Below, piece by piece: positions 30-52,465 of a stretch of 64,000 nucleotides of DNA. Under the pieces are notes generated by a model. That model worked only from the letters and a program-made list of their open reading frames with translations. It was not told where the DNA came from and ran no database searches. Within the stretch, counting starts at the first letter, position 1; each line of letters starts with the position of its first letter. The position numbers were made by a program, and so were the translations under genes. Source of the DNA: Haliotis rufescens (Eukaryota); assembly GCF_023055435.1 (NCBI RefSeq), contig NW_025963802.1:742355-806354 (forward strand), read 5' to 3'.

Positions 30-240
30 TAACGCCATGTTCAAGTGTGGTGTGGTGTGGTGTGGTGTGGTGTGGTGTGGTGTGGTGTACCTCAGACTTT
101 TGCCTGTTTTATAGTCCTAGCCCACTTAGATACCATGCCACAGTTTAACATGAATACCCCACTCCGACACAGTAAGCGAATCCAAGCTGACCAGTCCTTG
201 TTTTATCCCCTAAATGACGAGAGCCGGGGAGGGTAACTAG
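30..240 (-). mobile_element. Microsatellite-tailed interspersed repeat (copy 1, with a (TGTGG)n tail)
   Basis: Positions 100-235 (tacctcagacttttgcctgttttatagtcctagcccacttagataccatgccacagtttaacatgaatacccc...) match the reverse complement of 8990-9200. The ORFs 45..236(+) and 8893..9153(-) both read MPQ(F/L)NM.TPLRH, a mirror of this repeat. Confidence 0.55.
46..88. repeat. (TGTGG)n microsatellite, about eight units
   Basis: Direct reading. Confidence 0.95.
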
Positions 241-504
241 TACAAACTTTTAATGTCTTGATATATAAACAGGGGCTCAAACCACCCTTATGCTCTCCAG
301 GCAGGCGCTCTATCCACCACCAGGAAGACAGTCCTTTGTTGCAGAAAGCTGTGATAGGTTGCCATAGCTACTATATCCCAGAAGGTGGCAGAGTTCACTT
401 CATCCTCTATCACTATTACAGTCAAGTCTACAAGATGCTGTGGTTGACATTAGATTGACGTGGTCTTCAGCTCTCCATTGTGAAGAAACCAGGTGTTGTC
501 TCAG

Positions 505-8939: not shown

Positions 8940-9243
8940 CTTCTAGCGTGTGTGTGTGTCTGTGTGATTCAGCTCGCAGAGCCGGACGTCGGTGGCTCGA
9001 TACCCTGGCACAGTCATGTACCAATAGACGTTTACAGCTGGTATTTCTTCTTACCCTGGCTGGCGTTCGCCATAAAGGAGATATAACGAGGACTTGTCGG
9101 CTTGGAGTTAGTATTCCGTGTCTGAGTGGGGTGGTCATGTTCAACTGCGGCATGGTATCTCAGTGGGCCAGCACTATAAATCGGGCATAAGCCCGGACTA
9201 TCAAAAACAGCTGCACACACACACGCACGCACGCGCGCGCATG
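8940..9243 (+). mobile_element. Microsatellite-tailed interspersed repeat (copy 2, with a (CA)n(CACG)n(CG)n tail), immediately upstream of the mariner MITE
   Basis: Shares the segment catgttcaactgcggcatggtatctcagtgggccagcactataaatcgggc plus a CA/CACG-rich tail with the copy at 27465-27600. Confidence 0.55.
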
Positions 9244-9245
9244 TA

Positions 9246-9629
9246 CGAGGGGCGTTCAATAAGTTTTGCAACTTCAATATAAGACCAAGTCGCAGAATAT
9301 CTGGGCTGTAGGCTAAGTCTGGGCTGTAGGGTGGGTGATTTAACTGTTCGAACCCAGACTTAGCCCCCACTGACTTTTTCCTGTTCCGGCAAATGAAATC
9401 TGCCCTACGTGGAAGACGCTTCCAGGATGACGAGGACATAACGGCTGCCAAAGAGGCGTGGTTGGAGGGCCAATCTGCGGATTTCTATAAAAGTGGTATT
9501 AAAAGCTTGAAGGACAAATGGAATAAGTGTATTGAGGTGAATGGAGATTATATTGAAAAATAAAAGTGCAAAAGATATTCTGCGACTTGGTCATATATTG
9601 AAGTTGCAAAACTTATTGAACGCCCCTCG
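9246..9629. mobile_element. Mariner-derived MITE (internally deleted mariner) with 58-bp terminal inverted repeats and a TA target-site duplication
   Basis: Segment 9246-9303 (cgaggggcgttcaataagttttgcaacttcaatataagaccaagtcgcagaatat) is the reverse complement of 9572-9629. TA flanks both ends at 9244-45 and 9630-31. The interior, read on the plus strand, encodes the mariner transposase C-terminus NPDLAPTDFFLFRQMKSALRGRRFQDDEDITAAKEAWLEGQSADFYKSGIKSLKDKWNKCIEVNGDYIEK*. The adjacent HPPYSPD part is readable only on the minus strand, which points to a small internal inversion. Confidence 0.8.
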
Positions 9630-10329
9630 TACGTCGCTGTGTCAGTGGCCTAGTCTTGAACACGACATTAAACACCATTTTTATATATCAGCTAGCTAGC
9701 GCATCACCAGTGCACCAGTGTAGGCATTCCAATTGAGAATATTGTCCAAGCACCAGTGTTTGAAATAGACATCGGCCCGTAGGCCCGAGGCCGACAGATT
9801 TGTTCTCGCGCTGATAGTTTTAAATTTCAGCAGGCCCTTAAGGCCTGCAGTTTATCTAAGTAATTATTTATTTAGCATTATTTAAGTAATGTGACACATA
9901 ACATTCATATTTATAAACAGTACGATTAGACCATTCAAATAGTGTATGACATGTAGTCGCAAAGATGTTTTTCAAGCTGATAATTTCCTGATAAATATAG
10001 GCTTCATCTATCACCACCGAGTCTCTGGGAACTGGGTGTGATAGCAGTAAACGATTCTGGTTGACTGGTTGTGTCTTGTAATTTATATTGCAAGAGTGCC
10101 TCCCTACTTCAGCTAAAACGCCTACTGTTATCCACTGGGCCTACAGTTTGTTTTTTTCCACTGGGCCTACAGTTTGTTTGTTTTAAAATGTGCTGTCCCT
10201 TAATGTTCTCTGTTTACTCTGCTGAGTTTCAGACACTGCCTAGCGCCCAGTAAAATGAGAATCGATTGGTCACCGTTTCTGATTGTGTCCCAGCACAATG
10301 TGTGCGGAGCAGTTCTGATGCTGTCAACC

Positions 10330-11234: not shown

Positions 11235-11961
11235 GTATTGTAACATTGATATTAAGATACTCAAGAATCAGAATATTATAATTTCAAATGCATTAGTCGC
11301 ATGTTTCTCTTTAATGCTGATCATTTTCCCGGCTTCGTTTTTCAAAATTTTAAGGCAGCCATTTTGGTTTGTCTGCGCACATGCTTCGCTCATTGTACGT
11401 CGCGTCCACACGTAGGCCTATATATTGACCGTATTTTGTAATTGTACGCTGACATTCTTGAATAAAACATGTCACTAGTTCTCTATTCTTGTCATTAGTT
11501 GTTTAAAACGCATTGCGTTTGCAGCTTTGGCTTCAGGGTTTAGTCAAAGTAAAAAATCTTTAGCCTAACTAGGCCTATTGCAAGTTTAAACATGCGCAGT
11601 TGGCACCATAGAAAGGTTTTTGCTTCTGGTCTTCTCCCAGGCCTAAGAATTTCTGTGGCTTAGACGTTTAGAGTCTGTGGCATGGAATCTAGCATCATTT
11701 CTGTCCTAGGCATGATTATTAATATTATGATATAAGTGGGGAATTTATGTAGGATTCCAAACAAAGTGCCAATGACAAGTAATCTGTCGAACAGTCGTTA
11801 TTTAGTTGACAATTGGGATTTTGTGAGCTCTTATTTTCGAAATTGACGAATTGATGCATTAATTTATATCGAAACAATGAGGCCTCTTTATTGACCCTGT
11901 TCTCAGTGAAATACAAGACATCTTTACAAAGCTGTGACATTATGTTTAAACATGAAATTGG

Positions 11962-12120
11962 GGGCGGTCGGGTAGCCTAGTGGTTAGAGCGTTCGATCGT
12001 CACGGGGAAGACCCGGGTTAGGTTCCCGACATGGGTACAATGTGTGAAGCCCATTTCTGTTGTCCCTCGCCGTGATATTGCTGGAATATTGCTAAAAGCG
12101 GCGTAAAACCATACTCACGA
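11962..12120 (+). mobile_element. SINE-B copy (PUF60 intron 1)
   Basis: Reads ggggcggtcgggtagcctagtggttagagcgttcgatcgtcacggggaagacccgggttaggttcccgacatgggtacaatgtgtgaagcccatttctg...ccgtgatattgctggaatattgctaaaagcggcgtaaaaccatactcac. Confidence 0.8.
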
Positions 12121-24812: not shown

Positions 24813-25174
24813 CTAGTAACATAAATTGCAACATAATTTGAGTCACAAATGCCAAATATCAAATACAGTTTCCACTATGGCAAGACAAGATGTCTCAGCA
24901 CACGCCAAAATATCTCATTGCTTTTAGACCAGGGAGGATTTTCTCTCATAGGTAAAAAATTCCAAGTATAATCCTTGCAAATGAGTTTCGAAATCACATG
25001 GCTTTATTGTACCTTGGATGATTCATAATTGTTGAGCTTTGGTGTCCTGACTGGAAGATGGTAACAAAATACTAATTGTAATGTTTGGGGAAATTGGCAG
25101 CTACTCAATTTTATCAAAGTCGGTTACTTGTTATGCCCCGCATGATATGAGCCTCTGAAACATTGTTATTTCAG

Positions 25175-25284
25175 GTCTAGAACGAGCCATTCAGTCCCTA
25201 AATGGCCGGTTCTTTGGTGGGAGAATTGTGAGAGCAGAAAAGTATGATCCTGACATGTTTGAAGCTCAAGATCTGTCTGGTTGA
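25175..25284 (+). CDS. PUF60: PUF60 terminal coding exon (GLERAIQSLNGRFFGGRIVRAEKYDPDMFEAQDLSG*)
   Basis: Matches PUF60 ...[33 protein letters not shown]. Acceptor is tatttcag and the stop TGA is at 25282-25284. A candidate poly(A) signal aataaa lies at about 26326. Confidence 0.85.
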
Positions 25285-26653
25285 AAACCTAAGGGAAACA
25301 TGGAGAAATCCTGAGAAAAACAGAGACTCTAAAGTGCTTGAATGATGGAAAGACGGTATCATTCAGTTATCCTTAAGTCAGCAAGCCAAGGTACTCCCAA
25401 ATGCTGGTGTAATGGCGTCCGTATGCACTACGTCTCAAGGGATATCACAGCGCGAGCTGTTCCAGAAATAATACCAGAAAGTGTTTCGCTTCAAAGTGTA
25501 TGTTTCCTGACAAATGCGATCCTTAAAACTGATGGGAAGTGTGTAATTTGAATGTGGAATTAGCTTACAGTTCGCATGTTTTGATGCTACCACACAGCTG
25601 ATACGATTCTAGAATTTGGTGCTTCATTTTCAGAACTTTAAGATTTGACCTAAAGCAACAAGAGTCAGATAAGGAGACGCGTGAATGCTGATAGCCTGGT
25701 TCTAAACAACTTGTGATTGAGTGAATATTTGTGTGATGGTGGCTTTATTCATTGTGTGACTTGCCAGTTTGAGTGAAAGATATGTGTATAAATCTGGTAC
25801 AACTGATTTGAATGTTTCCTGTTATGAAAATTGCCATAAGATTATGAACTAGGTGTAAATAATGTATATGAAAAGAAATTATGAGATTTTGTTTGATGTT
25901 TTCAACTCGGCTAAAGTTTTAAGATTTTAATGAAGTGAAAATTGAAAGTTTGAAATTGTGATGTATTAAGTTTTTTTCAATTGCTTGAGAAAGGTATTCA
26001 GAAAGATGTGTTCATTTCATCACTTGAGAGGAATCATGTAGATATTTTTAAGGTACATTGGATTCTTACCTTGATGGGCCCATCTACCTCAAAACATCTA
26101 CATGTTCAAAACTAAGGCTCACAATTTGGTTGTTATTTTTTGTAATGTCAAAGTATTATGTTTTGTATCGTGAAGGAATTGTATATTTCTCTTATCAAGA
26201 GTACATCAATTCAGTCCGTGTGAATGATTCTGTTTCAGCCTTAATTTCACATTCAACTTGTGTAAATACGTATTTTAAAGAATGACTTCAAAAGGTGTAT
26301 AATATGTTGATATTGACATTTTGTAAATAAACCATGATGCAAACTATGTTTGATTTTCTTATGTCTTTGTGAAAACATGGAAGGTTGAAACCCTTTTTGC
26401 AACAAGAAGTAAAGAATAACTGGATTATGTCTTTATTACAAGTTCATTGCAATATAGCAGAAAAATTGGTGGGGTGTGTTCTAAAAAATATTTGATTACA
26501 AAATACATTTAAAGTATAAGTAAACCAGATTGAAGCACCTTTTCCCAAATATTAATTCCTTATACAGTTAATTATCTTGTCGGGGGACTGATTTGATTTT
26601 GCTGTTTTTTTCCTGTTGAATTTATGACCAACTTTATGATTCATATATTAGTA

Positions 26654-26817
26654 GGGGCGGACGGGTAGCCAGTGGTTAAAGCGTTTGCTCGTCACGCCAA
26701 AGACCCAGGTTCGATTCCCAACATGGGTACAATGTGTGAAGCCCATTTCTGGTGTCCCCCGCCGTGATATTGCTGGAATATTGCTAAAAGCGGCGTAGAA
26801 CCATACTCACTCACTCA
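26654..26817 (+). mobile_element. SINE-B copy (downstream of the PUF60 3' end)
   Basis: Reads gggcggacgggtagccagtggttaaagcgtttgctcgtcacgccaaagacccaggttcgattcccaacatgggtacaatgtgtgaagcccatttctggtgtcccccgccgtgatattgctggaatattgctaaaagcggcgtagaaccatactcactcactca. Confidence 0.8.
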
Positions 26818-27154
26818 TATATTAGTAGCTCATTATGATCTTTTCATTATACCTCGTGAATGACCTAGTGTTAAGTCTATTAAAGTAAGCACCCTTTGAA
26901 AATTGAGTAGAAACTGAATGGTCACTTCTGGTCACCTGTGCACAAAGCAAAGTAGCAGAGGACATGGACAGCAGATCACTTTAAAAGAATGTGTAAGCGT
27001 GACATTATATATCACATGTGCACTGATTCAACAGATTTTGTTTGTGAGATGCCTAGAGATTGCCATGCTCTTGAGCACATGGTTCTCTGCAGAGGTACCG
27101 CCTCCGTGGTAGATCGTCCGCCCGGAGAGAGGGAGGTCCGGGGTTGGATCCCGG

Positions 27155-27162
<8 letters not shown>

Positions 27163-27218
<56 letters not shown>
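27163..27218. repeat. (CA)n microsatellite, about 28 units
   Basis: Direct reading. It is preceded by a tRNA-like motif ggtagatcgtccgcccggagagagggaggtccggggttggatcccggc. Confidence 0.95.
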
Positions 27219-27399: not shown

Positions 27400-27600
27400 C
27401 AGTGTTTTTGTATTTGTATGTTGTAAGACGAGTTCACTTGGGGATAAACAGGAACAGTTGCGTATTCATGTTAAACTGCGGCATGGTATCAAAGTTAACT
27501 AGCACTATAAAACCGGCTTTTGTCAGGAGCATTACAAGCAGAGACACGCAGGCACGCACACAGGCACACAAGCACGCACACAGATTTGGTCCGTACGAGA
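27400..27600 (+). mobile_element. Microsatellite-tailed interspersed repeat (copy 3)
   Basis: Contains catgttaaactgcggcatggtatcaaagttaactagcactataaaaccggc followed by a cacgcaggcacgcacacaggcacacaagcacgcacacag tail. A tRNA-like motif plus (CA)n at 27090-27218 may be the head of the same element. Confidence 0.45.
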
Positions 27601-27789
27601 AAATCAGCTACACATACACGTGCATGCACGTCGCTATAGAAGTGACACAACTGAAGCGACGTTTTTACATTTCACCTCGCCTTTTACTCTTGACGGATTG
27701 AACAAAATACAAAACAAAGTTTCGACCAGGAACATTCTTCCATTCAACCAAACATTCACACAGCCACACATATTCATAAGTCTTATTAC

Positions 27790-30700
27790 GACCATTCATC
27801 CATCTTATCAGATTACTAATCCATCCAACTGCAATAATCATCCATCTTAATACTGATCCATCCAACTGCAATAATCATCCATCTTAATACTGATCCATCC
27901 AACTGCAATAATCATCCATCTTAATACTAATCCATCCAACTGCAATAATCATCTATCTTCATACTGATCCATCCAACTGCACTAATCATCCATATTAATA
28001 CTGATCCATCCAACTGCAATAATCATCCATCTTCACACTGATCCATCCAACTGCACTAATCATCCATCTTAATACTAATCCATCCAACTGCAATAATCAT
28101 CCATCTTAATACTAATCCATCCAACTGCAATAATCATCTATCTTCATACTGATCCATCCAACTGTACTAATCATCCATCTTAATACTAATCCATCCAACT
28201 GCAATAATCATCCATCTTCACACTGATCCATCCAACTGCAATAATCATCCATCTTAATACTGATCCATCCAACTGCAATAATCATCCATCTTCACACTGA
28301 TCCATCCAACTGCACTAATCATCCATCTTAAAACTGATCCATCCAACTGCAATAATCATCCATCTTAATACTGATCCACCCAACTGCAATAATCATCAAT
28401 ATTATTACTGATCCATCAAACTGCACTAATCATCCATCTTAAAACTGATCCATCCAACTGCAATAATCATCCATCTTAATACTGATCCACCCAACTGCAA
28501 TAATCATCAATATTAATACTGATCCATCCAACTGCAATAATCATCCATCTTAATACTGATCCATCCAACTGCAATAATCATCCATCTTAATACTGATCCA
28601 TCCAACTGCAATAATCATCCATCTTAATACTGATCCATCCAACTGCAATAATCATCCATCTTAAAACTGATCCATCCAACTGCAATAATCATCCATCTTA
28701 ATACTGATTCATCCAACTGCAATAATCATCCATCTTAATACTAATCCATCCAACTGCAATAATCATCTATCTTCATACTGATCCATCCAACTGCACTAAT
28801 CATCCATCTTAATACTGATCCATCCAACTGCAATAATCATCCATCTTCACACTGATCCATCCAACTGCACTAATCATCCATCTTAATACTAATCCATCCA
28901 ACTGCAATAATCATCCATCTTAATACTAATCCATCCAACTGCAATAATCATCTATCTTCATACTGATCCATCCAACTGTACTAATCATCCATCTTAATAC
29001 TAATCCATCCAACTGCAATAATCATCCATCTTCACACTGATCCATCCAACTGCAATAATCATCCATCTTAATACTGATCCATCCAACTGCAATAATCATC
29101 CATCTTCACACTGATCCATCCAACTGCACTAATCATCCATCTTAAAACTGATCCATCCAACTGCAATAATCATCCCTCTTAATACTGATCCACCCAACTG
29201 CAATAATCATCAATATTATTACTGATCCATCAAACTGCACTAATAATCCATCTTAAAACTGATCCATCCAACTGCAATAATCATCCATCTTAATACTGAT
29301 CCACCCAACTGCAATAATCATCAATATTAATACTGATCCATCCAACTGCAATAATCATCCATCTTAATACTGATCCATCCAACTGCAATAATCATCCATC
29401 TTAATACTGATCCATCCAACTGCAATAATCATCCATCTTAAAACTGATCCATCCAACTGCAATAATCATCCATCTTAATACTGATCCATCCAACTGCAAT
29501 AATCATCCATCTTAAAACTGATCCATCCAACTGCAATAATCATCCATCTTAATACTGATCCATCCAACTGCAATAATCATCAACATTAATACTGATCCAT
29601 CCAACTGCAATAATCATCCATCTTAATACTGATCCATCCGACTGCAATAATCATCCATCTTAATACTGATCCATCCAACTGCAATAATCATCCATCTTAA
29701 TACTGATCCATCCAACTGCAATAATCATCCATCTTCATACTGATCCATCCAACTGCAATAATCATCCATCTTAAAACTGATCCATCCAACTGCAATAATC
29801 ATCCATCATAATACTGATCCAACCAACTGCAATAATCATCCATCTTAATACTAATCCATCCAACTGCAATAATCATCTATCTTCATACTGATCCATCCAA
29901 CTGTACTAATCATCCATCTTAATACTAATCCATCCAACTGCAATAATCATCCATCTTCACACTGATCCATCCAACTGCAATAATCATCCATCTTAATACT
30001 GATCCATCCAACTGCAATAATCATCCATCTTCACACTGATCCATCCAACTGCACTAATCATCCATCTTAAAACTGATCCATCCAACTGCAATAATCATCC
30101 ATCTTAATACTGATCCACCCAACTGCAATAATCATCAATATTATTACTGATCCATCAAACTGCACTAATCATCCATCTTAAAACTGATCCATCCAACTGC
30201 AATAATCATCCATCTTAATACTGATCCACCCAACTGCAATAATCATCAATATTAATACTGATCCATCCAACTGCAATAATCATCCATCTTAATACTGATC
30301 CATCCAACTGCAATAATCATCCATCTTAATACTGATCCACCCAACTGCAATAATCATCAATATTAATACTGATCCATCCAACTGCAATAATCATCCATCT
30401 TAATACTGATCCATCCAACTGCAATAATCATCCATCTTAATACTGATCCATCCAACTGCAATAATCATCCATCTTAATACTGATCCATCCAACTGCAATA
30501 ATCATCCATCTTAAAACTGATCCATCCAACTGCAATAATCATCCATCTTAATACTGATCCATCCAACTGCAATAATCATCCATCTTAATACTGATCCATC
30601 CAACTGCAATAATCATCAACATTAATACTGATCCATCCAACTGCAATAATCATCCATCTTAATACTGATCCATCCGACTGCAATAATCATCCATCTTAAT

Positions 30701-33560
30701 ACTGATCCATCCAACTGCAATAATCATCCATCTTAATACTGATCCATCCAACTGCAATAATCATCCATCTTCATACTGATCCATCCAACTGCAATAATCA
30801 TCCATCTTAAAACTGATCCATCCAACTGCAATAATCATCCATCTTAATACTGATCCAACCAACTGCAATAATCATCCATCTTAAAACTGATCCATCCAAC
30901 TGCAATAATCATCTATCTTAATACTGATCCATCCAACTGCAATAATCATCCATCTTAATACTGATCCATCCAACTGCAATAATCATCAATATTAATACTG
31001 ATCCATCCAACTGCAATAATCATCCATCTTAATACTGATCCATCCAACTGCAATAATCATCAATATTAATACTGATCCATCCAACTGCAATAATCATCCA
31101 TCTTAATACTGATCCATCCAACTGCACTAATCATCCATATTAAAACTGATCCATCCAACTGCAATAATCATCCATCTTAAAACTGATCCATCCAACTGCA
31201 ATAATCATCCATCTTAATACTGATCCATCCAACTGCAATAATCATCAATATTAATACTGATCCATCCAACTGCAATAATCATCCATCTTAATACTGATCC
31301 ATCCAACTGCAATAATCATCCATCTTAATACTGATCCATCCAACTGCAATAATCATCCATCTTAAAACTGATCCATCCAACTGCAATAATCATCCATCTT
31401 AAAACTGATCCATCCAACTGCACTAATCATCCATCTTATACTGATCCATCTAACTGCAATAATCATCCATCTTAAAACTGATCCATCCAACTGCACTAAT
31501 CATCCATCTTAAAACTGATCCATCCAACTGCACTAATCATCCATCTTCATACTGATCCATCTAACTGCAATAATCATCCATCTTAAAACTGATCCATCCA
31601 ACTGCAATAATCATCCATCTTAATACTGATCCATCCAACTGCAATAATCATCCATCTTAATACTGATCCATCCAACTGCAATAATCATCAACATTAATAC
31701 TGATCCATCCAACTGCAATAATCATTCATCTTAATACTGATCCATCCAACTGCAATAATCATCCATCTTAATACTGATCCATCCAACTGCAATAATCATC
31801 CATCTTAATACTGATCCATCCAACTGCAATAATCATCCATCTTAATACTGATCCATCCAACTGCAATAATCATCCATCTTAATACTGATCCATCCAACTG
31901 CAATAATCATCAACATTAATACTGATCCATCCAACTGCAATAATCATTCATCTTAATACTGATCCATCCAACTGCAATAATCATCCATCTTCATACTGAT
32001 CCATCTAACTGCAATAATCATCCATCTTAAAACTGATCCATCCAACTGCAATAATCATCCATCTTAATACTGATCCATCCAACTGCAATAATCATCCATC
32101 TTAATACTGATCCATCCAACTGCAATAATCATCAATATTAATACTGATCCATCCAACTGCAATAATCATCCATCTTAATACTGATCCATCCAACTGCACT
32201 AATCATCCATCTTCATACTGATCCATCCAACTGCAATAATCATTCATCTTAAAACTGATCCATCCAACTGCAATAATCATCCATCTTAATACTGATCCAT
32301 CCAACTGCAATAATCATCCATCTTAATACTGATCCATCCAACTGCAATAATCATCCATCTTAATACTGATCCATCCAACTGCAATAATCATCCATCTTAA
32401 TACTGATCCATCCAACTGCAATAATCATCCATCTTAATACTGATCCATCCAACTGCAATAATCATCCATCATAATACTGATCCATCCAACTGCACTAATC
32501 ATCCATCTTCATACTGATCCATCTAACTGCAATAATCATCCATCTTAAAACTGATCCATCCAACTGCAATAATCATCCATCTTAATACTGATCCATCCAA
32601 CTGCAATAATCATCAATATTAATACTGATCCATCCAACTGCAATAATCATCCATCTTAATACTGATCCATCCAACTGCACTAATCATCCATCTTAAAACT
32701 GATCCATCCAACTGCAATAATCATCCATCTTAAAACTGATCCATCCAACTGCAATAATCATCCATCTTAATACTGATCCATCCAACTGCAATAATCATCA
32801 ATATTAATACTGATCCATCCAACTGCAATAATCATCCATCTTAATACTGATCCATCCAACTGCAATAATCATCAATATTAATACTGATCCATCCAACTGC
32901 AATAATCATCCATCTTAAAACTGATCCATCCAACTGCAATAATCATCAACATTAATAATGATCCATCCAACTGCCATAATCATCCATCTTAATACTGATC
33001 CATCCAACTGCAATAATCATCCATCTTAAAACTGATCCATCCAACTGCAATAATCATCCATCTTAATACTGATCCATCCAACTGCAATAATCATCAATAT
33101 TAATACTGATCCATCCAACTGCAATAATCATCCATCTTAATACTGATCCATCTAACTGCAATAATCATCCATCTTAATACTGATCCATCCAACTGCAATA
33201 ATCATCCATCTTAATACTGATCCATCCAACTGCAATAATCATCCATCTTAATACTGATCCATCCAACTGCACTAATGATCCATCTTCATACTGATCCATC
33301 TAACTGCAATAATCATCCATCTTAAAACTGATCCATCCAACTGCAATAATCATCCATCTTAATACTGATCCATCCAACTGCAATAATCATCCCTCTTAAT
33401 ACTGATCCATCCAACTGCAATAATCATCCATCTTAATACTGATCCATCCAACTGCAATAATCATCCATCTTAATACTGATCCATCCAACTGCAAACATTC
33501 TCCCACCTTTTCAGAATATTGATCTATCCAACTGTAAAAGTCATCCATCTTACAAGAATT
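27790..33560. repeat. 37-bp satellite (unit tgatccatccaactgcaataatcatccatcttaatac), about 155 copies over about 5.7 kb, with higher-order periodicity
   Basis: The 37-bp period is visible directly. Unit variants (cactaatcatccatcttaaaac, caataatcatcaatattaatac, cttcacac, cttcatac, ctaatcc) recur in the same order at 28100-28440, 28900-29250 and 29850-30200. That implies a higher-order repeat of roughly 0.8-0.95 kb. Confidence 0.9.
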
Positions 33561-33769
33561 CAAGGAATGGTCGGCTCGGAGTCGGTATACTGTATCTGAG
33601 TGGGATATCCATGTTTATCTCAGTTGGCAAGCCTTATGAAACTGACATTGCACACACGACCAACTACAAACATGTTCATTTAACTATACACAGGGACGTT
33701 TATACACCAAAGCGAAATATTCGCGGCGCAACCGCAAACATCCGAAACCACGAACATCCACCCTTAGAA

Positions 33770-34300
33770 ACAAAACATTTCCATTTAACAACAACCATCC
33801 ATCCATTTAATAACCAAACCCCGACGTTACAACGAACATTCATCCACATTTTCCCACCTAACCACGAATACTCATCCACGTTTATCTATCTAACCACGAA
33901 TATTCATCTACATTTTCCCATCTATCCACGAATATTCATCCACATTTTTTCAATCTATCCACGAATATTCATCCATAATTTCCAATCTATCCACGAATAT
34001 TCCTCCATTTAACCACAAATATTCATCCACATTTTCCCATTCTATCCAAGAATATTCACCCACATTTTTAATCTATCCACGAATTTTCATCCATTTAACC
34101 ACGAATATTCATCCATTTAACCACGAATATTCATCCACATTTTCCAATTCTATCCACGAATATTCATCCACATTATCAATCCATCCACGAATATACATCC
34201 ATTTAACCACGAATATTCATCCACATTTACCCTCCTAACCACGAACATTTATCCCAAAACCCATCTAACCGCGAACATTCATCCACACCTTCGAACTAAA
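33770..34300. repeat. Tandem repeat of about 22-32 bp (unit ccacgaatattcatccacattttcccatctat, shorter variant ccacgaatattcatccatttaa)
   Basis: About 18 units. It shares the catccat/catccac core with the adjacent 37-bp satellite. Confidence 0.8.
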
Positions 34301-34319: not shown

Positions 34320-36660
34320 CGGTTGAATGTTCGTTGGATGTGACATTCATAGAGAATACTACTCATTCTTGTTAGATACTATTTTAACGAAACTCGTGAA
34401 ATTTCTATGGTATCTAACGAGAATGAGTGTGGTATTTTATTTATTACCCACGTTAAATATATTTTAAGTGTAAATACATAACATCTTTCGTTCGTTGAAG
34501 GACCAAACTGAAACTGATTGTCAAATCTGGTTGCACATGAATATTTATATATGCCCAAATATGGGCATTGTTGGCATTTCTATGCATACACATTAACATC
34601 ATATACGCCTGCAGTTGTGTTTGGAAACAAAACAGCACCGACGCTCAAAATCCTTTTTGGAGAATTTTTTCAACTTATGGTAAATCAAGCGCCATGTTGT
34701 CAGTACGTAGGACACCTATAAGAAAATTTGAAAAGTCACAGTAGCGCCGCGGTTTGAATATCGGACCAACAGTGGGTCACTCGCACTGCCGGGGTTCAAT
34801 TTGAGTGATCTGGTCGTGCAATCGTGAACAAACAACTCTCGATCGAAACAGTGCCACAAAATACGCTTCGAAGGGGACACGGATGGCACAACGGGTTATC
34901 CCAAGTAAGTCTAGATATCTGTCCAGATAGTTTAAATTGACTTCATTTCACCACGCTTATCCTTTTACATTAAATCAAATTGAAAGTCGCGAAAGTGGTC
35001 GAGTGCGTCACGCTCATGGGGACCCTCGATCTATTGATCGGTAGTCGGTCATTGTAAATGGATATCTAGCTCGATTATCTAATGTATGTAGCAGCTCTAT
35101 GCATAACTAATACAGAATGCAAACCGAATTTGATGCTCGTGCCCATCTTGTTTGTTTTAATAACGGCGCGCGGTTTTTTATGAATGAAAAAAGTAGTTCC
35201 GCTGTGACAGAGGTCACGGTTATCCAATCAAAACGAATAAAACGAGGTCAACCTTGTACGACACACGTGTGACGTACGGATTTAGTATCTTCACCACGTT
35301 GGTAATAAATAGAGAATACCACACTCATTCTCGTTGGATACGATTTTTACGAGTGGACTTTCTATGGTATCTGACCTCGCTTTCGCTCGATCAGATACCA
35401 TAGAAAGTCCACTCGTTTCGTAAAAATGGTATCTAACGAGAATGAGTGTGGTATTTTATTTATTGCCCACGTTAAATATATATTCAAGTGTAAATACATG
35501 ACAACTTTTGTTCGTTGACAGACCAAACTGAAACTGGTTGCAAAATCTGGTTGCGCATGAATATTGATACATGCCTAAATATGGGCATTGTTGACATTTC
35601 TATGCATACACATTAACAACATGCGCCTTCAGTTGTGTTTGCAAACATAACAGCACCGACGCTCAAGATCCTTTTGGAAGAATTTCTTCAACTTATGGTA
35701 ATTCAAGCGCCATCTGGGATGTTGTTTGTACGCAGGACACCTATAAGAAAAATTTAAAAGTCACATTAGCGCCGCGCTTTGAATATCGTACCAACAGTCG
35801 GTCACTCGCACTGCCGGTGTCCCGGCTGTGCAATCAAAATGGTTCGGTTTCCTTGATCTATCAGCTGAATTTATATCATGTCCATGCCACTTTGGAAGAG
35901 GGAATCAGAGTGTTCGACAAAGACATTCGTGTTAACTGAAAATCAACAAACTCAAGTCTGCTTGCATGTCAGTGACAGCTTCGAACGAAGGGCAAGGTCA
36001 CCACCGGAATGAGAAACGACAACCGTGATCTTCTCACAGCGTTTTACGCTAAAGATTGGGAATGTTATTGTTCACATTTGGGCTATTTTAGGCCACATAC
36101 TCAGGCACACTTCTACTGCGTTTTCGAATGATTTGTATCGGAAATGTTCACTTTGAGTGATTTGGTCGTGCAGTCGTGAACAAACAACCACTCCCGAAAC
36201 AGTGCCACAAAATACGCGTCGATGGGGACTTCATTTCCCAACGCTTATCCATTTACGTTAAATCAAATTGAAAATTGCGAAAGTGGTCGGATGCGTCACC
36301 TGTATCTTAACCACGTGGGTAATAAAGCGGATTATTACCCAAGTGGTGAAGATACAGTAGGCTAGATACTAAATTCGTACGTCACATGTGTGTCGTACAA
36401 GGTTGACCTCGTTTTATTCGTATTGACTGGATAATCGTGACCTCTGTCACACCAGAAGTTCTTTTTTTCATACATAAAAAAGGACGCGAGACGTTATTCG
36501 CTTTCTCAACGACAAAGCAGAACTAAAGGATTCTCATGAAAGCTAGATACATTTACACACACTTTATTAAACCAAACAAGATCGTCACACGCATTAAATT
36601 CGCTATGCATATTTAGTTATGCATAGAGCTACTGCAGACATTATATAATCGAGCCATGCA
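34320..36660. repeat. Composite direct and inverted duplication block: 34320-34820 is duplicated at 35400-35830, 34795-35020 at 36135-36300, and 35040-35330 is inverted at 36300-36660
   Basis: The sequence ggtatctaacgagaatgagtgtggtattttatttatt.cccacgttaaatatat...caccgacgctcaa.atcc...gtcactcgcactgccgg recurs in direct orientation. The reverse complement of gaggtcacggttatccaatcaaaacgaataaaacgaggtcaaccttgtacgacacacgtgtgacgtacggatttagtatc (35210-35290) occurs at 36365-36440. The reverse complement of the 35040-35160 segment occurs at 36545-36660. Confidence 0.7.
35300..35470. repeat. Near-perfect hairpin (about 75-bp arms, about 16-bp loop); terminal motif of a locally duplicated repeat
   Basis: The left arm ggtaataaatagagaataccacactcattctcgttggatacgatttttacgagtggactttctatggtatctga is followed by a loop cctcgctttcgctcga and then the right arm tcagataccatagaaagtccactcgtttcgtaaaaatggtatctaacgagaatgagtgtggtattttatttattgccc. 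Single-arm copies occur at 34340-34440, 49270-49345 and 51300-51375. Confidence 0.8.
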
Positions 36661-37339
36661 TATCCATGGGGGGTTGTTGGGTTGGTGGGTGTGGGTGTGG
36701 GTGTGGGTGTGGGGGGAATAATTCAGATTCCGGGAATTGAGGGGTTCACATTACAAAAAGTACTAATAAGGATCTTGTTATGAAACAAGAGTAGGTTAGA
36801 ATGATCTAGTGTTGGGGGGAAGGTGGTTGACCAATGATAGATGGAAACATGAGTAGAGCTGTGACGTAGGTACCGGTTTAAAAAGCGTCAAAAGCCCCCA
36901 AATCGAGAGAGCGGCCTGGGAGACTACATCTGGACTGGTGCTCCGCTCTCGGCTTGTTGTCACGATCTTTCGAACCAGAAACCAAACTTAGGCACCAGCA
37001 TTTCGACTGAGACTGAAGCTTTGCGGCCGAAGTCTCGTATTTAAGTGACAAATAGAGTGGGTTGACTCGCAACACAAAGTTGGAATAAAAGCTGTTTAAC
37101 GAAGATCACTCTTTGTGCTTGTTGGAGTAACTACGGTAATAGGTCCAAGGACCTCGAGTACTGACATTGTACTTCTCGCTCGTCCCGGACTGTCAGCACC
37201 AAGAACGAGGGGATTGCCGTAGTTCAGGCGAAGAGGTACACGAATTGCTACCTTCCGATTACGCAACAGTTACCCTCGATAACATCATAGAATTACCTTG
37301 GACTGATGCGGGGTACGATCTTCTCTGACGACTGCCAAA

Positions 37340-40129: not shown

Positions 40130-40270
40130 GGGCCGTTCGTCACGCTGAAGACCCGGGTTCGTTTCCCGACATGGGTACAATGTGTGAAGCCCATTTCTGG
40201 TGTCCCCCTCCGTGATATTGCTGGAATATTGCTAAAAGCGGCGTAAAACCATCCTCATTCACTCACTCAA
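40130..40270 (+). mobile_element. SINE-B copy, 5'-truncated
   Basis: Reads ...gttcgtcacgctgaagacccgggttcgtttcccgacatgggtacaatgtgtgaagcccatttctggtgtccccctccgtgatattgctggaatattgctaaaagcggcgtaaaaccatcctcattcactcactca. Confidence 0.75.
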
Positions 40271-47769: not shown

Positions 47770-48215
47770 GCAGGTTTCTTGTCGAGGAAATAATGCCGCC
47801 GAGATGGGTTCTTGTCGAGGAAATAATGCCGACGAGATTGGTTCTTGTCGAGGAAATAATGCCGTCGAGATGGGTTCTTGTCGAGGAAATAATGCCGACG
47901 AGATGGGTTCTTGTCGCGGAAATAATGCCGACGAGATGGGTTCTTGTCGAGGAAATAATGCCGACGAGATGGGTTCTTGTCGAGGAAATATTGCCAACGA
48001 GATGGTTTCTTGTCGAGGAAACGATGCCGACGAGATGGTTCCTTGTCAAAGAAATGGATTGGTGATTCACTTAAAAGGTGGACATAAGCTGACGAGATGG
48101 AGTCTTGTCGAGGAAATAATGCCGACGAGATGGTTTCTTGTCAAAGAAATGGATTCGTGATTCATTTGAAAGGTGGACATAAGCTGACGAGATGGAGTCT
48201 TGTCGAGGAGATGGA
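47770..48215. repeat. 33-bp satellite (unit cgagatgggttcttgtcgaggaaataatgccga, about 10 copies, plus two longer variant units of about 100 bp at 48040-48215)
   Basis: A period of 33 bp equals 11 codons. This produces the repetitive ORFs on both strands (MPTRWVLVEEI repeats and their reverse). Confidence 0.85.
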
Positions 48216-48589: not shown

Positions 48590-50800
48590 TTGCAGTCCAG
48601 GTTGTAGTGCTTATTGGGCAGGTACACTTTCAATAACACATGACATGTCATGGCCTCTTATAAGACCGAACCCGATACACGGTAAAAAAACATGGCCAAT
48701 CTAAAACGGCATATCACCAGTAGTGAAAGCTCACTCCCACGAGTCACCTATACAAGAGTTAACGTTAAGCCTATGGTGTTGATATTCTTAAATTAAAAAC
48801 AAAACAACAACAAAATACCAAATAACAGACAGAAACAACGACTGTGACAGTCATATGTTGGCTGGCAACTCCTATGATAGACTTACATTTAGTCTCTCAA
48901 ATCTTATATTACACAATATCCTTCTTGACTCTAAAAATAAAATAAAAATTCCCTATGCTTATTTCAGAATAGAGCTAGCTTGAGCTGGCTAGACTTGCTT
49001 TTGTATGCATTTCTAGATTATTATTTTTTTTATAAAATAAATATATTCCACGGTCATGGTGCAGGACTACTCCTATGGTCTCACCATGTCACGTACACGA
49101 ATATAGACATAATATATTTACACAAACATCCATTGGGATACCTTTGAGTGAAGATTGTTGCCTTAGAATTATTAAACATTACATTGGTGTGTAACCCTTT
49201 CGAAATTTCCATCCTTCTTATGGTATTGAGAATTGAGAATCACATAGGTGTGTGTGGCTTTTCGCTCGGTCAGATACCAAAGAAAGTCCACTCGTTTCGT
49301 AAAAATGGTATCTAAGGAGAACCAGTGTAGTATTATCTATATATTTCACTCGAGTTATCTGCCTGCATAACACACCTGCATTCTAAATACATGGTAGCTA
49401 TTTATCTCCCCTTGACATGGCCAGCGTGAATTTGTGTAATTGATTTGTCATTCGTCCAGCTGTGAGTCATTTGTTCGTGAGTTATGCACTTGATCCTGTT
49501 TTTGTTGTTGTTTAGCTTCGCACTCACGCAGGTTCCATTTACATAATATAATTAACTTATGCGACAGAAATGAGATTCAGCGCATCACGTGGACTCGTGC
49601 TGTGAAATGAGATTCAGCGTTTCTCGACAGCTGTTGACAACGGCCTGTTGCACTTGTGGACGTTTTTAAATGTTCGCCAATAACACGTGGCTATAAGACC
49701 CTATAAAGCTGTATAATAGACATTCTCTGACGCTGTGACATGCTACAACGGTTGTATATCTTACATAACTCCACGTGTTTTATCTTGTTTACACGTGACC
49801 ATAGCCTGATAAAACAAAACGTGCTTATCGGGGAATGACCTAAAACTCGCAGCGGATTCTTCGCTTTGGTAAGAAGTACTAACCGATAATGTAATTTTTT
49901 CACTCCCCTGTTTTAGCAGCGGGAGACTTCGCTTAAATATTTATCGACTATTAATTTCGTCCCTGCAGGCACTTCCACGGTCCCACGCTTGGCAGTGTTG
50001 ACTCTCAACATCCTTGAAACTAGGTTAAAAGAAACAAAACAACACAGCACGATCTGTGTCAGGCACCGAGTCTTGAACAGGCTGATTTCTTGTCATTAGG
50101 TGAGTAACTGTGTTTCTTCACTATAGAACTTATGATTTTCTTTTGCTACTTTATGTTCAAACCTTTTTTTCGTTATCATGTGGCCGTGTTTCGGCAATGC
50201 TCAAGCGTGAAGTCCAATGTTAATACCTCAGTGAATAGCCTACCGTGACGTATTTCCAGGAATTTCCCGCGAACAGGGTTTAAATAAAATGGTTTGTTCG
50301 TACATTTTTAAACAGGGTTTACGATATTAGTTTTGTTGTTTGGTTAAGAAACATATACCTCTGCAAATAGCCTTATTCACAAACGTGGTATCATTGGTTA
50401 TTGATACAAACATACACAGCTTGTCAAAATATTCGGTTGATTTTGCTTTATTTTTATACTATTTCAACGCCCACGCTTTCTCATGATGTTTGTGAGTTTT
50501 GAGTGGTTTCGTCTTTAGATGAAAAGAAAAAACCCGCACACACTATAGAGGGTTAAATGTTGTTTATGGAATCATCTACTACCCAGTGTGGTTTAGGTGT
50601 GTTCGTTTTTTACCAGAACGCGATACTTATATATGTATCTTTATTGCTTTTTTGTATATAAGATAGTGGGTGAGTGAGTGGGTGAGCGAGTGAGTATGGT
50701 TTGACGCCGCTTTTAGCAATATTCCTGCAATATCACGGCGGGGGAGACCAGAAATGAGCTTCACACATTATACCCATGTCGGGAATCGAGCCCGGGTCAT
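48590..50800. repeat. Tandem segmental duplication, copy 1 (about 2.2 kb)
   Basis: Blocks from 48590-49930 recur at 50810-52165, including the identical 70-aa minus-strand ORFs 49691..49903 and 51925..52137. The tail at 50280-50800 recurs at 52170-52465. Copy 1 ends inside a SINE-B. Confidence 0.8.
50660..50798 (-). mobile_element. SINE-B copy (truncated); the tandem-duplication junction falls at its end
   Basis: Reads gtgggtgagtgagtgggtgagcgagtgagtatggtttgacgccgcttttagcaatattcctgcaatatcacggcgggggagaccagaaatgagcttcacacattatacccatgtcgggaatcgagcccgggtc. Confidence 0.7.
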
Positions 50801-50809
50801 GGTACAAAA

Positions 50810-52465
50810 GTCAATTAGGTTGTAGTGCTTATTGGGCAGGTACACTTTCAATAACACATGACATGTCATGGCCTCTTATAAGACCGAACCCGATACACGG
50901 TAAAATAACATGGCCAATCTAAAACGCCATACACCAGTAGTGAAAGCTCACTCCCACGAGTCACCCATACAAGAGTTAACGTTAAGCCTAATGTGTTGAT
51001 ATTCTTAAATTAAAAACAAAACAACAACAAAATACATAATAACAGACAGAAACAACAACGACTGTGACAGTCATATGTTGGCTGGCAACTCCTATGAGAA
51101 CGATCTTTGGCTCAGGGTCTCACCATGTCACGTACACGAATATAGACATAATATATTTTCGCTGTTACACAAACATCCATTGGGATACCTTTGAGTGAAG
51201 ATGGTTTCCTGAGAATTATTAAAAATTACATTGGTGTGTAACCCTTTCGAAATTTCCATCCTTCTTATGGTATTGAGAATTGAGAATCACATAGGTGTGT
51301 TTGGCTTTCGCTCGGTCAGATACCAAAGAAAGTCCACTCGTTTCGTAAAAATGGTATCTAAGGAGAACCAGTGTAGTATTATCTATATATTTCACTCGAG
51401 TTATCTGCCTGCATAACACACCTGCATTCTAAATACATGCTAGCTACTTATCTCTCCTTGACATGGCCAACGTGACTTTGTGTAATTGATTTGTCATTCG
51501 ACCAGCTGTGAGTCATTTGTTCGTGAGTAATGCACTGGATCCTGTTTTTGCTGTTGTTTAGCTTCGCACTCACGCAGGTTCCATTTATATAATATAAGTA
51601 ACTTATGCGACAGAACGCATGACCAGTGTCTCTATGGTACTAAACCCTTTAGTGTGAGATTACAATAAAATACATTGTTTCCTACTAAACAAAGTCTAAC
51701 AAAATCGTCCTCATTAAATGGGTACTAGACATAATTCATATAATTCACATAGTTGATTCAAACGGCGATAGCGCAACGATGCTGAATTAACGTGAAGTTC
51801 CTCGACACCACGTGCAAATCACGTGGACTCGTGCTGTGAAATGAGATTCAGCGTGTCTCGGGAGCTGTTGATAACGGCCTGTTGCTCTTATGGACGTTTT
51901 CAAACGCTCACCAATAACACGTGACTATAAGACCCTATAAAGTTGTATAATAGACATTCTCTGACGCTGTGACATGCTACAACGGTTGTATATCTTACAT
52001 AACTCCACGTGGTTTATCTTGTTTACACGTGACCATAGCCTGATAAAACAAAACGTGCTTATCGGGGAATGACCTAAAACTCGCAGCGGATTCTTCGCTT
52101 TGGTAAGAAGTACTAACCGATAATGTAATTTTCTCACCCCCCTGTTTTAGCAGCGGAAGACTTTTACATTACATTTTTACACAGGGTTAACGATATTAGT
52201 TTTGTTGTTTGGTTAAGAAACATATACCTCTACAAATAGCCTTATATATGTATCTTTATTGCTTTTTTGTATATAAGATAGTGAGTGAGTGAGTGGGTGA
52301 GCGAGTGAGTATGGTTTGACGCCGCTTTTAGCAATATTCCTGCAATATCACGGCGGGGGACACCAGAAATGGGCTTCACACATTATACCCATGTCGGGAA
52401 TCGAGCCCGGGTCTTCGGCGTGACGAGCAAACGCTTTAACCACTAGGCCACCCGAACGCCCCCTT
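50810..52465. repeat. Tandem segmental duplication, copy 2 (with indels: it lacks about 170 bp near 48900-49080 and about 630 bp of 49930-50620, and gains about 190 bp at 51610-51800)
   Basis: Collinear with copy 1 at high identity. The junction reads ...gagcccgggtc|atggtacaaaagtcaatta|ggttgtagtgcttattgggcagg. Confidence 0.8.
52283..52462 (-). mobile_element. SINE-B copy
   Basis: Reads (gagt)n...tatggtttgacgccgcttttagcaatattcctgcaatatcacggcgggggacaccagaaatgggcttcacacattatacccatgtcgggaatcgagcccgggtcttcggcgtgacgagcaaacgctttaaccactaggccacccgaacgccccc. Confidence 0.8.

What the first reader, a model, noticed from the sequence alone, without database searches (positions are those of the whole stretch)
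27790..33560. A 5.7-kb, 37-bp satellite with a higher-order repeat of about 0.8-0.95 kb, directly downstream of the PUF60 3' region
Specific unit variants recur in the same order in at least three blocks (28100-28440, 28900-29250, 29850-30200). That pattern indicates unequal-crossover amplification of a multi-unit block. A related shorter-unit array (33770-34300, core catccat or catccac) sits at its distal edge, which suggests one satellite evolving into another. A large satellite block within 2.5 kb of a conserved gene end is notable and may be an assembly-collapsed region.
Basis: seen in the sequence. Interest (0 to 1): 0.5.

Follow-up and report, generated by a model that had tools for sequence, protein, structure and literature searches.

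The report
Ordinary mollusc 37-bp tandem array
A 5.7-kb non-coding run of 155 copies of a 37-bp unit lies 2.5 kb past the PUF60 gene of a mollusc (probably a bivalve); part of it was recently enlarged by copying blocks of 22-28 units, which is ordinary behaviour for such repeats in these genomes.

Summary
A 37-bp tandem array spans 27814-33554: 155 units, one indel, and 5.6% mean difference between units. It starts 2.53 kb after the PUF60 stop codon.

Secondary periodicity is real. Exact long k-mers recur at lags of 814, 925, 1036, 1739 and 1850 bp, and unit-order shuffles do not reproduce this. It is not an array-wide higher-order repeat, though. It comes from about three recent tandem duplications (22 units, 25 units and 3 units), all within 27925-30884. 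The distal 2.6 kb shows none.

The neighbouring 22/32-bp array (33725-34290) is significantly homologous to the 37-mer. Degenerate units of that older type also lie at the left edge (27725-27813), so the 37-mer is a younger variant that expanded from an older array.

The host is a mollusc (PUF60 exons 89% identical to Mya arenaria). In bivalves, gene-proximal tandem arrays are the norm. An unrelated 39-bp array in the same window shows the same kind of block periodicity.

The array is non-coding, nearly CpG-free and unstructured. There are no telomeric repeats or gaps, and Helentron (HINE) hallmarks were not found. Both arrays follow truncated copies of one SINE, but a SINE origin could not be shown.

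Verdict: a real, ordinary feature of low interest.

The parts
27814..33473 (+). Homogeneous 37-bp tandem array, 153 units, consensus TACTGATCCATCCAACTGCAATAATCATCCATCTTAA. The + strand is the C-rich, G-poor strand.
   Evidence: TRF; segmentation; 153 core matches against 0 expected. 34 unit variants, 49 units identical to the consensus, mean pairwise difference 5.6%, 5.3% G, 2 CpG in the 5,741-bp array (27814-33554).
33474..33554 (+). Two degenerate 38-bp units, separated by 5 bp, forming the eroded right edge of the array.
   Evidence: units 153 and 154; one search shows about 8 and 7 departures from the consensus.
27725..27813 (+). Left-edge remnant: about four degenerate units of the older 22-bp type (CCACGAATATTCATCCATTTAA). 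The last of them merges into the first 37-mer; a partial unit runs from about 27790.
   Evidence: Local alignment to the 22-mer concatemer scores 33 against a shuffle mean of 8.6 (z = 13.1). Control windows further left, scored against the 32-mer, give 6-7.
27925..28738 (+). Block copy I: units 3-24, 22 units, 814 bp.
   Evidence: Units 3-21 equal units 25-43 with 3 mismatches in 703 bp. Lag 22 exceeds every shuffle.
28739..29848 (+). Block copy II: units 25-54. Units 25-46 duplicate copy I. Units 30-54 are the source or partner of copy III.
29849..30884 (+). Block copy III: units 55-82, 28 units. It is a 25-unit copy of units 30-54 plus an internal 3-unit duplication (units 65-67 and 68-70, 30219-30440).
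   Evidence: Lag 25 for units 30-42 against 55-67 (2/481). Lag 28 for units 40-54 against 68-82 (4/555). Lag 47 for units 8-20 against 55-67 (0/481). K-mer lags 925, 1036 and 1739.
30885..33473 (+). Distal part of the array (units 83-152) with no significant block periodicity. It carries its own private variants (T13, T29).
33725..34290 (+). Older, degenerate related array with 22-bp and 32-bp units in a 108-bp compound period. It has about one CpG per unit.
   Evidence: TRF periods 22, 30-33, 87 and 108, with 75-97% matches. Homology to the 37-mer. 22 CpG in 566 bp.
27433..27583 (+). 5'-truncated copy of a tRNA-derived SINE ('SINE-B'), body plus CA-rich tail, upstream of the 37-mer array.
   Evidence: BLAST to the full copy at 330..61 (-) (85% over 62 bp) and to the 8991-9224 copy; four-way alignment.
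33561..33690 (+). Second 5'-truncated SINE-B copy, lying between the 37-mer array and the older array.
25159..25284 (+). Last coding exon and stop codon of the PUF60 orthologue (...LNGRFFGGRIVRAEKYDPDMFEAQDLSG*). An AATAAA lies at 26326.

Best explanation
This is a standalone, non-coding tandem array in intergenic DNA 2.5 kb downstream of PUF60 in a mollusc, probably a bivalve. By size it is a minisatellite or short-monomer satellite DNA: 37-bp unit, 155 copies, 5.7 kb.

The 37-bp unit is a variant of an older 22/32-bp repeat family. Degenerate remains of that family survive at the left edge and as a 0.57-kb array on the right. The 37-mer variant was amplified and homogenised from within or beside that older array.

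The array changes by out-of-register exchange between copies, meaning unequal sister-chromatid or homologue exchange, or replication-template misalignment. The latest events were a 22-unit (814-bp) tandem duplication, a 25-unit (925-bp) tandem duplication, and a 3-unit (111-bp) duplication inside the newest copy. Together they give a local pattern, in the proximal 3.1 kb, that looks like a higher-order repeat.

What is shown: the anatomy, the statistics, the homology to the neighbouring array, and the lack of coding or structural potential. What is inferred: the exchange mechanism, the old-to-young direction, and selective neutrality (no function).
For: - Array anatomy and significance.
- Block structure. 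Block copies differ by 0/481, 2/481, 3/703 and 4/555 bases, against 5.6% between random monomers, so the block events are much younger than monomer diversification.
- The three lags differ (22, 25 and 28 units) and have different breakpoints, as expected from independent misaligned exchanges and not from one fixed repeat unit.
- Variants are regional. A5, C1, C11 and T30 occur only in units 0-83; T13 and T29 only in units 98-148. This fits short-range homogenisation.
- The edges are degenerate, as expected where exchange is least effective.
- Homology of the 37-mer to the 22-mer and 32-mer units. Older-type units at the left edge: z = 13.1.
- The older array is less homogeneous (75-92% matches) than the 37-mer array (93%).
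- An unrelated 39-bp array at 58178-60166 has its own 703-bp (18-unit) period covering 41-46% of positions, so block duplication is generic here.
- Non-coding: longest stop-free stretch 52 aa. Also 2 CpG in 5,741 bp, no single-strand structure (z = +1.7 and +1.9), and no Rfam family.
- Host is a mollusc. Dispersed, gene-proximal tandem arrays are typical of bivalve genomes, and unequal crossover is the accepted way arrays are maintained (PMC8268682, PMC7492417, PMC10048060).
Against: - Only one locus in one assembly was seen. Genome-wide copy number, other loci, population polymorphism and read support are all unknown.
- The mechanism is inferred from the pattern. Gene conversion or replication slippage could give similar blocks.
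- Block I and block III cores are identical (0/481), while the intervening block II differs from both by 2-3 bases. That fits either later mutations in II or a I-to-III conversion event, so the exact order of events is not resolved.
- Both arrays sit just 3' of truncated copies of the same SINE. A purely standalone origin does not explain this.
- At 155 copies this array is longer than most arrays reported for the oyster, where arrays of more than 5 monomers are a minority (PMC7492417).
Confidence: 0.8

Rival explanations
1. SINE-tail origin. The repeat family was seeded by, or carried with, the 3' end of a tRNA-derived SINE ('SINE-B'). Either a 'SINE 3' part plus proto-array' unit was duplicated, or a second SINE-B copy inserted into the old array and split it. 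This concerns origin only and is compatible with later growth by unequal exchange.
For: - Both arrays lie about 65-140 bp 3' of a 5'-truncated SINE-B copy, in the same orientation: 27433-27583, then old units from 27725; and 33561-33690, then the old array from about 33725.
- Only four SINE-B copies exist in 64 kb, so two such adjacencies are unlikely by chance.
- The two fragments overlap in SINE coordinates, so they are separate copies and not one SINE split by the array.
- SINE-B carries an internal simple-repeat tract (CCACA/CA-rich) that could nucleate repeats.
- SINE-derived satellites are documented in molluscs (PcH-Sat from Nin-SINE, PMC11121367).
Against: - The 3' region of the best-preserved extended SINE-B copy (9637-9860) does not resemble the 22-, 32- or 37-bp units above chance (z = 0.6-0.8).
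- The stretches between SINE body and array on the left and right share no significant similarity (z = 1.0).
- The left and right SINE bodies are only weakly alike when compared directly (z = 3.5).
- No further SINE-B copies could be obtained from public contigs.
Confidence: 0.25
2. Transposon cargo. The array is the internal tandem-repeat module of a Helentron-type non-autonomous element (HINE) or a similar MITE-like element, as is common for bivalve satellite-like repeats, and has over-expanded in place.
For: - Superficial resemblance in layout: microsatellite (CA)28 at 27163-27218, a variable spacer, tandem repeats, then a hairpin-forming sequence at 34361-34436 soon after the last repeat.
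- HINEs are the main carriers of such arrays in oysters (PMC7492417).
Against: - No inverted 11-12-mer pairing between any left and right flank combination clearly exceeds chance; the best combination was matched by 1 of 40 shuffles.
- (CA)28 is 596 bp from the first unit, outside the 10-500 bp reported. It abuts a tRNA-like fragment and is not the usual tetranucleotide type.
- The hairpin belongs to a separate ~1.02-kb repeat that recurs at 35296-36299 without any array.
- No second copy of the flanks or of the 37-mer exists in the window.
- The monomer is 37 bp, while HINE monomers are typically 160-180 bp.
Confidence: 0.08
3. Assembly artefact. The array length, or the block duplications, come from collapse or false duplication during assembly and are not the true sequence.
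For: - Near-identical blocks (0/481 and 3/703 mismatches) are the kind of sequence that assemblers mis-join.
- No reads are available to check.
Against: - No Ns or gaps.
- Perfect 37-bp register, with a single 1-bp indel in 5.7 kb.
- The blocks have private substitutions and different lengths, including a clean 3-unit internal duplication. That looks biological and not like a chimeric join.
- An independent array in the window shows the same type of structure.
Confidence: 0.07
4. One locus of a major chromosomal satellite (centromeric, pericentromeric or subtelomeric).
For: None directly. The strong strand asymmetry and homogeneity are compatible with any satellite.
Against: - No telomeric repeats in the window.
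- The array is only 5.7 kb and is flanked by interspersed repeats on both sides, with a housekeeping gene 2.5 kb upstream.
- No other copy in 64 kb.
- No match in metagenome contigs or in the searchable literature, though neither resource is suited to detecting this.
Confidence: 0.05

Closest known systems
Euchromatic, dispersed satellite-like tandem arrays of bivalves (e.g. the Crassostrea gigas satellitome, CgiSat families)
   Same: Non-coding head-to-tail repeats in gene-containing, transposon-rich regions of a mollusc genome. Arrays run to a few kb. They are interleaved with mobile-element fragments and evolve by non-reciprocal exchange (PMC8268682, PMC10048060).
   Different: The monomer is 37 bp; the reported range is 21-3287 bp, with 160-180 bp dominant. 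At 155 copies this array is longer than most reported ones. No Helitron or Helentron association was found here. The sequence family itself was not found in the searchable literature.
Higher-order repeat (HOR) satellites such as primate alpha satellite
   Same: Multi-monomer blocks are repeated with much higher identity (99.3-100%) than that between monomers inside a block (about 94%).
   Different: There is no fixed period (814, 925 and 1036 bp). Only three copies exist, confined to about half of the array. Monomers differ by only about 5%, compared with 20-40% in alpha satellite (figure from my own knowledge). This is best called nascent or segmental block duplication, not an established HOR.
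Classical minisatellites (10-100-bp units, arrays of 0.5-30 kb)
   Same: Unit size, array size, interspersed unit variants, and strong strand asymmetry in composition (5.3% G on one strand).
   Different: It is not G-rich or GC-rich like many vertebrate hypervariable minisatellites (35% GC). Whether it varies in length between individuals is unknown.
Transposon- or SINE-derived satellites (Cg_HINE tandem repeats; PcH-Sat from Nin-SINE in limpets)
   Same: The arrays are physically adjacent to truncated SINE copies, in a genome where tandem repeats derived from mobile elements are common.
   Different: The repeat unit shows no detectable homology to the SINE. No HINE subterminal inverted repeats were found.

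Membership tests
Non-coding tandem repeat (satellite or minisatellite DNA) | Head-to-tail repetition of one unit far beyond chance | tested here: met
   TRF gives 153.6 copies, 93% matches, score 10102. 153 core matches against 0 in shuffles.
Non-coding tandem repeat (satellite or minisatellite DNA) | No protein-coding or structured-RNA potential | tested here: met
   Longest stop-free stretch is 52 aa over six frames. No Rfam hit. Both strands fold less well than shuffled sequence.
Non-coding tandem repeat (satellite or minisatellite DNA) | Genomic abundance, or many loci (classical 'satellite' sense) | not testable with these tools
   Only one 64-kb window is available. There is no other copy in it and none in JGI metagenome contigs.
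Higher-order repeat (HOR) satellite | Multi-monomer blocks more alike than the monomers within a block | tested here: met
   Blocks differ by 0-0.7%, against 5.6% between monomers. Lags 22 and 47 exceed all shuffles.
Higher-order repeat (HOR) satellite | One regular period maintained along the array | tested here: not met
   Three different lags (814, 925 and 1036 bp), three copies only, limited to 27925-30884. No significant period in units 83-152.
Helentron-associated element (HINE) carrying tandem repeats | Matching 11-12-bp subterminal inverted repeats in the left and right flanks | tested here: not met
   No left/right flank pairing gives inverted 11- or 12-mer matches (up to 1 mismatch) clearly above shuffles; the best was matched by 1 of 40 shuffles. 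Criteria taken from PMC7492417.
Helentron-associated element (HINE) carrying tandem repeats | Left flank ends in a microsatellite 10-500 bp before the first repeat | tested here: inconclusive
   (CA)28 lies at 27163-27218, 596 bp before the array. It is a dinucleotide repeat and abuts a tRNA-like fragment.
Helentron-associated element (HINE) carrying tandem repeats | Right flank of about 60 bp with a 3' palindrome | tested here: inconclusive
   A hairpin at 34361-34436 follows the distal array. It is part of a separate ~1.02-kb repeat that recurs at 35296-36299 without an array.
SINE-derived satellite | Repeat unit homologous to a segment of the SINE | tested here: not met
   The SINE-B 3' region (9637-9860) against the 22-, 32- and 37-mers gives z = 0.6-0.8.
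SINE-derived satellite | Array physically continuous with a SINE copy | tested here: inconclusive
   Both arrays follow truncated SINE-B copies in the same orientation. The intervening stretches are not homologous to each other.
Centromeric or subtelomeric satellite | Chromosomal position at a centromere or next to telomeric repeats | not testable with these tools
   No (TTAGGG)n or (TTAGG)n in the window. Chromosomal position and FISH data are not available.

The most novel reading that the evidence does not exclude
The locus may preserve the successive stages in the birth of a satellite, all in one place. The proposed sequence is: the 3' tail region of a tRNA-derived SINE nucleated a 22/32-bp minisatellite; one compound variant became the 37-mer and expanded to 5.7 kb; that array is now forming its first higher-order blocks. 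If genome-wide SINE-B copies end in one or a few such units, this would be a clean, datable example of the path from SINE tail to minisatellite to satellite to nascent HOR in a mollusc.
Probability: 0.2. Interest if true: 0.35.

Novelty: new member of a known kind. Interest (0 to 1): 0.15.

Why it matters
It matters little beyond annotation.
- The region should be masked as a tandem repeat and not mistaken for a functional element of the PUF60 3' region.
- Its length should be treated with caution until long reads confirm it.
- For satellite-DNA evolution it is a tidy small example. An older array, a younger derived unit and three datable block duplications are all readable in one 6.5-kb stretch.
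- It could serve as a length-polymorphic marker. GATC occurs once per unit, in 144 of 155 units.
- The SINE adjacency is a modest lead on how such arrays start in molluscs.

Tried and rejected
1. Raw autocorrelation at multiples of 37 bp. It was misleading, because a single 1-bp deletion at unit 97 breaks the register. I replaced it with unit segmentation and an exact-k-mer lag spectrum.
2. By eye, the 3' region of the 9-kb SINE-B copy seemed to contain a single 32-mer-like unit. The test was not significant (z = 0.6-0.8), so I dropped the idea.
3. Segmental duplication of a 'SINE + spacer + array' composite. The left and right post-SINE segments are not homologous (z = 1.0), so there is no support.
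4. HINE/Helentron subterminal inverted repeats. Four left/right flank combinations gave nothing clearly above chance.
5. Other copies of the repeat family in the window. Only weak, AT-rich, low-complexity matches were found, with no arrays.
6. Public sequence. The exact 28-nt core and the SINE-B core each gave 0 hits in JGI metagenome contigs. That collection is not expected to hold much mollusc DNA.
7. Literature string search for the unit: 0 papers.
8. Orthologous locus in Mya arenaria: the protein is not on record for contig retrieval.
9. A nearby downstream gene. ORFs at 37-48.7 kb have no Pfam match; only Tc1-like transposase remnants appear, at about 55 kb. The downstream neighbour gene is not identified.
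10. Single-strand secondary structure of either strand: none, both fold worse than shuffles.
11. tRNA callers on the tRNA-like stretch at 27105-27153: ARAGORN calls nothing in the window, and Rfam finds only 52748-52819.


Full report
**What is there.** Tandem Repeats Finder reports a single 37-bp array at 27814-33494, with 153.6 copies, 93% matches and consensus TACTGATCCATCCAACTGCAATAATCATCCATCTTAA. A consensus-guided dynamic-programming segmentation gives 155 contiguous units from 27814 to 33554. Of these, 152 are exactly 37 bp, one has lost a base (unit 97, at 31403), and the last two at the right edge are degenerate 38-mers separated by 5 bp. A 28-nt core matches 153 times with up to 3 mismatches, always on the + strand and only inside the array, where shuffles give none. 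Among the 153 homogeneous units there are 34 sequence variants. 49 units equal the consensus, and random pairs of units differ by 2.07 positions, or 5.6%. The + strand has only 5.3% G, with a GC skew of about -0.7.

**Secondary periodicity.** Simple autocorrelation was misleading, because the one-base deletion shifts the register, so I worked with unit variants. Written out as variants, the array shows the same ordered run of about 10 distinct variants three times:
- Units 3-21 (27925-28627) match units 25-43 (28739-29441) at a lag of 22 units.
- Units 8-20 (28110-28590) match units 55-67 (29849-30329) at a lag of 47 units.
- Units 30-42 match units 55-67 at a lag of 25 units.
- Units 40-54 (29294-29848) match units 68-82 (30330-30884) at a lag of 28 units.

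At base level these blocks differ by 3/703, 0/481, 2/481 and 4/555 positions. Counting identical non-consensus units per lag gives 14 at lag 22 (z = 5.6) and 17 at lag 47 (z = 8.7). The largest value at any lag in 500 shuffles of unit order was 13.

**What kind of periodicity.** This is not a regular array-wide higher-order repeat. The copies are 22, 25 and 28 units long and all lie in 27925-30884. Units 83-152 (30885-33473) show no lag that exceeds the shuffles. The variant strings fit three separate tandem duplications:
- units 3-24 to 25-46 (814 bp);
- units 30-54 to 55-82 (925 bp);
- a 3-unit duplication (units 65-67 and 68-70, 111 bp) inside the newest copy, which turns lag 25 into lag 28.

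Block copies differ by 0-0.7% while monomers differ by 5.6%, so these events are much younger than the diversification of monomers. Several variants are regional: A5, C1, C11 and T30 occur only in units 0-83, and T13 and T29 only in units 98-148. The array edges are the most degenerate parts. All of this is the textbook signature of short-range, out-of-register exchange. The mechanism itself is inferred, not observed.

**Relation to the neighbouring array.** The array at about 33725-34290 has 22-bp and 32-bp units in a 108-bp compound period, with 75-97% matches. The 22-mer (AATATTCATCCATTTAA...) aligns to the second half of the 37-mer (AATAATCATCCATCTTAA) with a score that none of 500 shuffles reach. 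The 32-mer aligns over almost the whole 37-mer, and 8 of 500 shuffles reach that score. In addition, the 90 bp just left of the 37-mer array (27725-27813) consists of about four degenerate units of the 22-mer type (score 33 against a shuffle mean of 8.6, z = 13.1; control windows further left, scored against the 32-mer, give 6-7). The older repeat type therefore borders the 37-mer array on both sides. Together with its lower homogeneity, this suggests the 37-mer is a younger compound variant that expanded from within or beside an older array. That direction is an inference.

**Genomic context.** The PUF60 identification is right. Exons on the + strand between about 16.5 and 25.3 kb give 89% identity to the PUF60-like protein of the clam Mya arenaria and 88% to that of the sea slug Elysia, well above the vertebrate hits. 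The window is therefore molluscan, probably from a bivalve. The last coding exon ends at 25281 and the stop codon follows, so the array begins 2.53 kb downstream. A canonical AATAAA at 26326 suggests the transcript ends about 1.5 kb before the array; that is an inference. The window is full of interspersed and tandem repeats:
- a tRNA-derived SINE family with at least seven copies (one copy is the only Rfam hit);
- a second SINE family;
- Tc1-like transposase remnants;
- four further minisatellite arrays.

One of those arrays, an unrelated 39-bp array at 58178-60166, has its own 703-bp (18-unit) period covering 41-46% of positions. Block duplication inside arrays is thus generic here. Published work on oysters describes this landscape: tandem arrays scattered through euchromatin, close to genes and mobile elements, and maintained by unequal crossover (PMC8268682, PMC7492417, PMC10048060).

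**Is it transposon cargo?** In oysters such arrays are often the central module of Helentron-type non-autonomous elements (HINEs). These are defined by subterminal inverted repeats, a left flank ending in a microsatellite 10-500 bp before the repeats, and a short right flank with a 3' palindrome (PMC7492417). Here a (CA)28 tract lies 596 bp upstream and a hairpin lies shortly after the distal array. However, no left/right flank pairing gives inverted 11-12-mers clearly above chance. The hairpin belongs to a separate ~1.02-kb repeat that recurs at 35296-36299 without any array. No second copy of the flanks exists in the window. I therefore do not file it as a HINE.

**The SINE association.** Part of the left flank (27433-27583) and the spacer between the two arrays (33561-33690) are both 5'-truncated copies of one tRNA-derived SINE. 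Its full copy lies at 330..61 on the minus strand, and another lies at 8991-9224. Both arrays thus begin 65-140 bp 3' of a copy of the same SINE, in the same orientation, although only four copies exist in 64 kb. I tested two stronger versions of this idea and neither held:
- The extended 3' region of the 9-kb copy does not resemble the repeat units (z = 0.6-0.8).
- The post-SINE stretches on the left and right are not homologous to each other (z = 1.0).

The association stays unexplained. One simple reading is that the right-hand SINE inserted into the old array and the left-hand adjacency is coincidental, or reflects seeding at a SINE tail. No further copies could be retrieved from public contigs.

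**Function.** The array has no open frame longer than 52 codons and only 2 CpG in 5,741 bp. It has no Rfam match, and both strands fold less well than shuffled controls. There are no telomeric repeats or assembly gaps in the window. I found nothing that points to a function. The most likely status is neutral repetitive DNA.

**What could not be tested.** I could not check read support (collapse or false duplication), genome-wide copy number, chromosomal position, presence at the orthologous locus in other species (one search failed), or polymorphism. The unit sequence was not found in the searchable literature, so as a sequence family it appears to be undescribed. As a phenomenon it is well known.

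**Verdict.** This is a real but ordinary tandem array in a repeat-rich mollusc genome, with a clear record of three recent block duplications and a related older array. Interest is low.

Noticed in passing
window 58178-60166: Unrelated 39-bp tandem array (about 51 copies, 94% matches) with its own secondary periods of 703 bp (18 units, 41-46% of positions) and 234 bp. Because 39 bp is 13 codons, it carries stop-free ORFs of 225 and 173 aa (58747-59424 and 59450-59971, 'MMTSCDYLISGGI' repeats). These are probably spurious.
   Followed up: partly
window 330-61 (-), 8991-9224 (+), 27433-27583 (+), 33561-33690 (+): A tRNA-derived SINE family ('SINE-B') with a tRNA-like head, a body, an internal CA/CCACA-rich tract, and a further 3' segment (CTTGAACAYGRCRTTAAACMCCATTT; z = 8.4 between two copies). 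Two truncated copies sit just upstream of the two related tandem arrays.
   Followed up: yes
window 9246-9629: A 384-bp mariner-like MITE with 55-bp terminal inverted repeats (1 mismatch) and TA on both sides, read by eye from the sequence. It is inserted into the simple-repeat tract of the 9-kb SINE-B copy. The overlapping ORF has a 'HPPYSPDLA'-type motif but no Pfam hit.
   Followed up: partly
window 26641-26817; also 52660-52825, 52298-52473, 11961-12118, 40137-40265, 3094-3256, 50683-50798: A second tRNA-derived SINE family ('SINE-A'), with at least 7 copies at 85-95% identity. The copy at 52748-52819 (-) is the only Rfam tRNA hit in the window. One copy lies between the PUF60 polyadenylation signal and the array.
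   Followed up: partly
window 34349-36667: Composite repeat just after the distal array. It has two direct ~1.02-kb copies (89-90% identical). One begins with a long, near-perfect hairpin (35315-35455); the other begins with a similar hairpin-forming sequence (34361-34436). It also has ~230-290-bp inverted arms (35069-35290 and 36364-36654). The ~85-bp hairpin-arm sequence also occurs at 49260-49345 and 51304-51391. This may be a foldback or MITE-like element and is not classified.
   Followed up: partly
window 27105-27218: A tRNA-like stretch (27105-27153) resembles the heads of both SINE families (z = 4.4-4.9) and is followed directly by (CA)28. ARAGORN and Rfam do not call it. It is unclear whether it belongs to the downstream SINE-B fragment.
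   Followed up: partly
window 33725-34290 versus 27814-33554: The older array keeps about one CpG per unit (22 in 566 bp). The derived 37-mer array has almost none (2 in 5,741 bp), so the expanded variant is a CpG-free version of the repeat.
   Followed up: no
window 7847-8584, 47776-48209, 62029-62845: Three more minisatellite arrays with 30-, 33- and 29-bp units. The first has 59-, 89- and 148-bp compound periods. Tandem arrays occupy an unusually large share of this 64-kb window.
   Followed up: no
window 54976-55901: Remnants of a Tc1-like transposase (Pfam HTH_Tnp_Tc3_2, E = 1.3e-13; DDE_3, E = 2e-06, just below its curated cutoff), broken into separate frames.
   Followed up: partly
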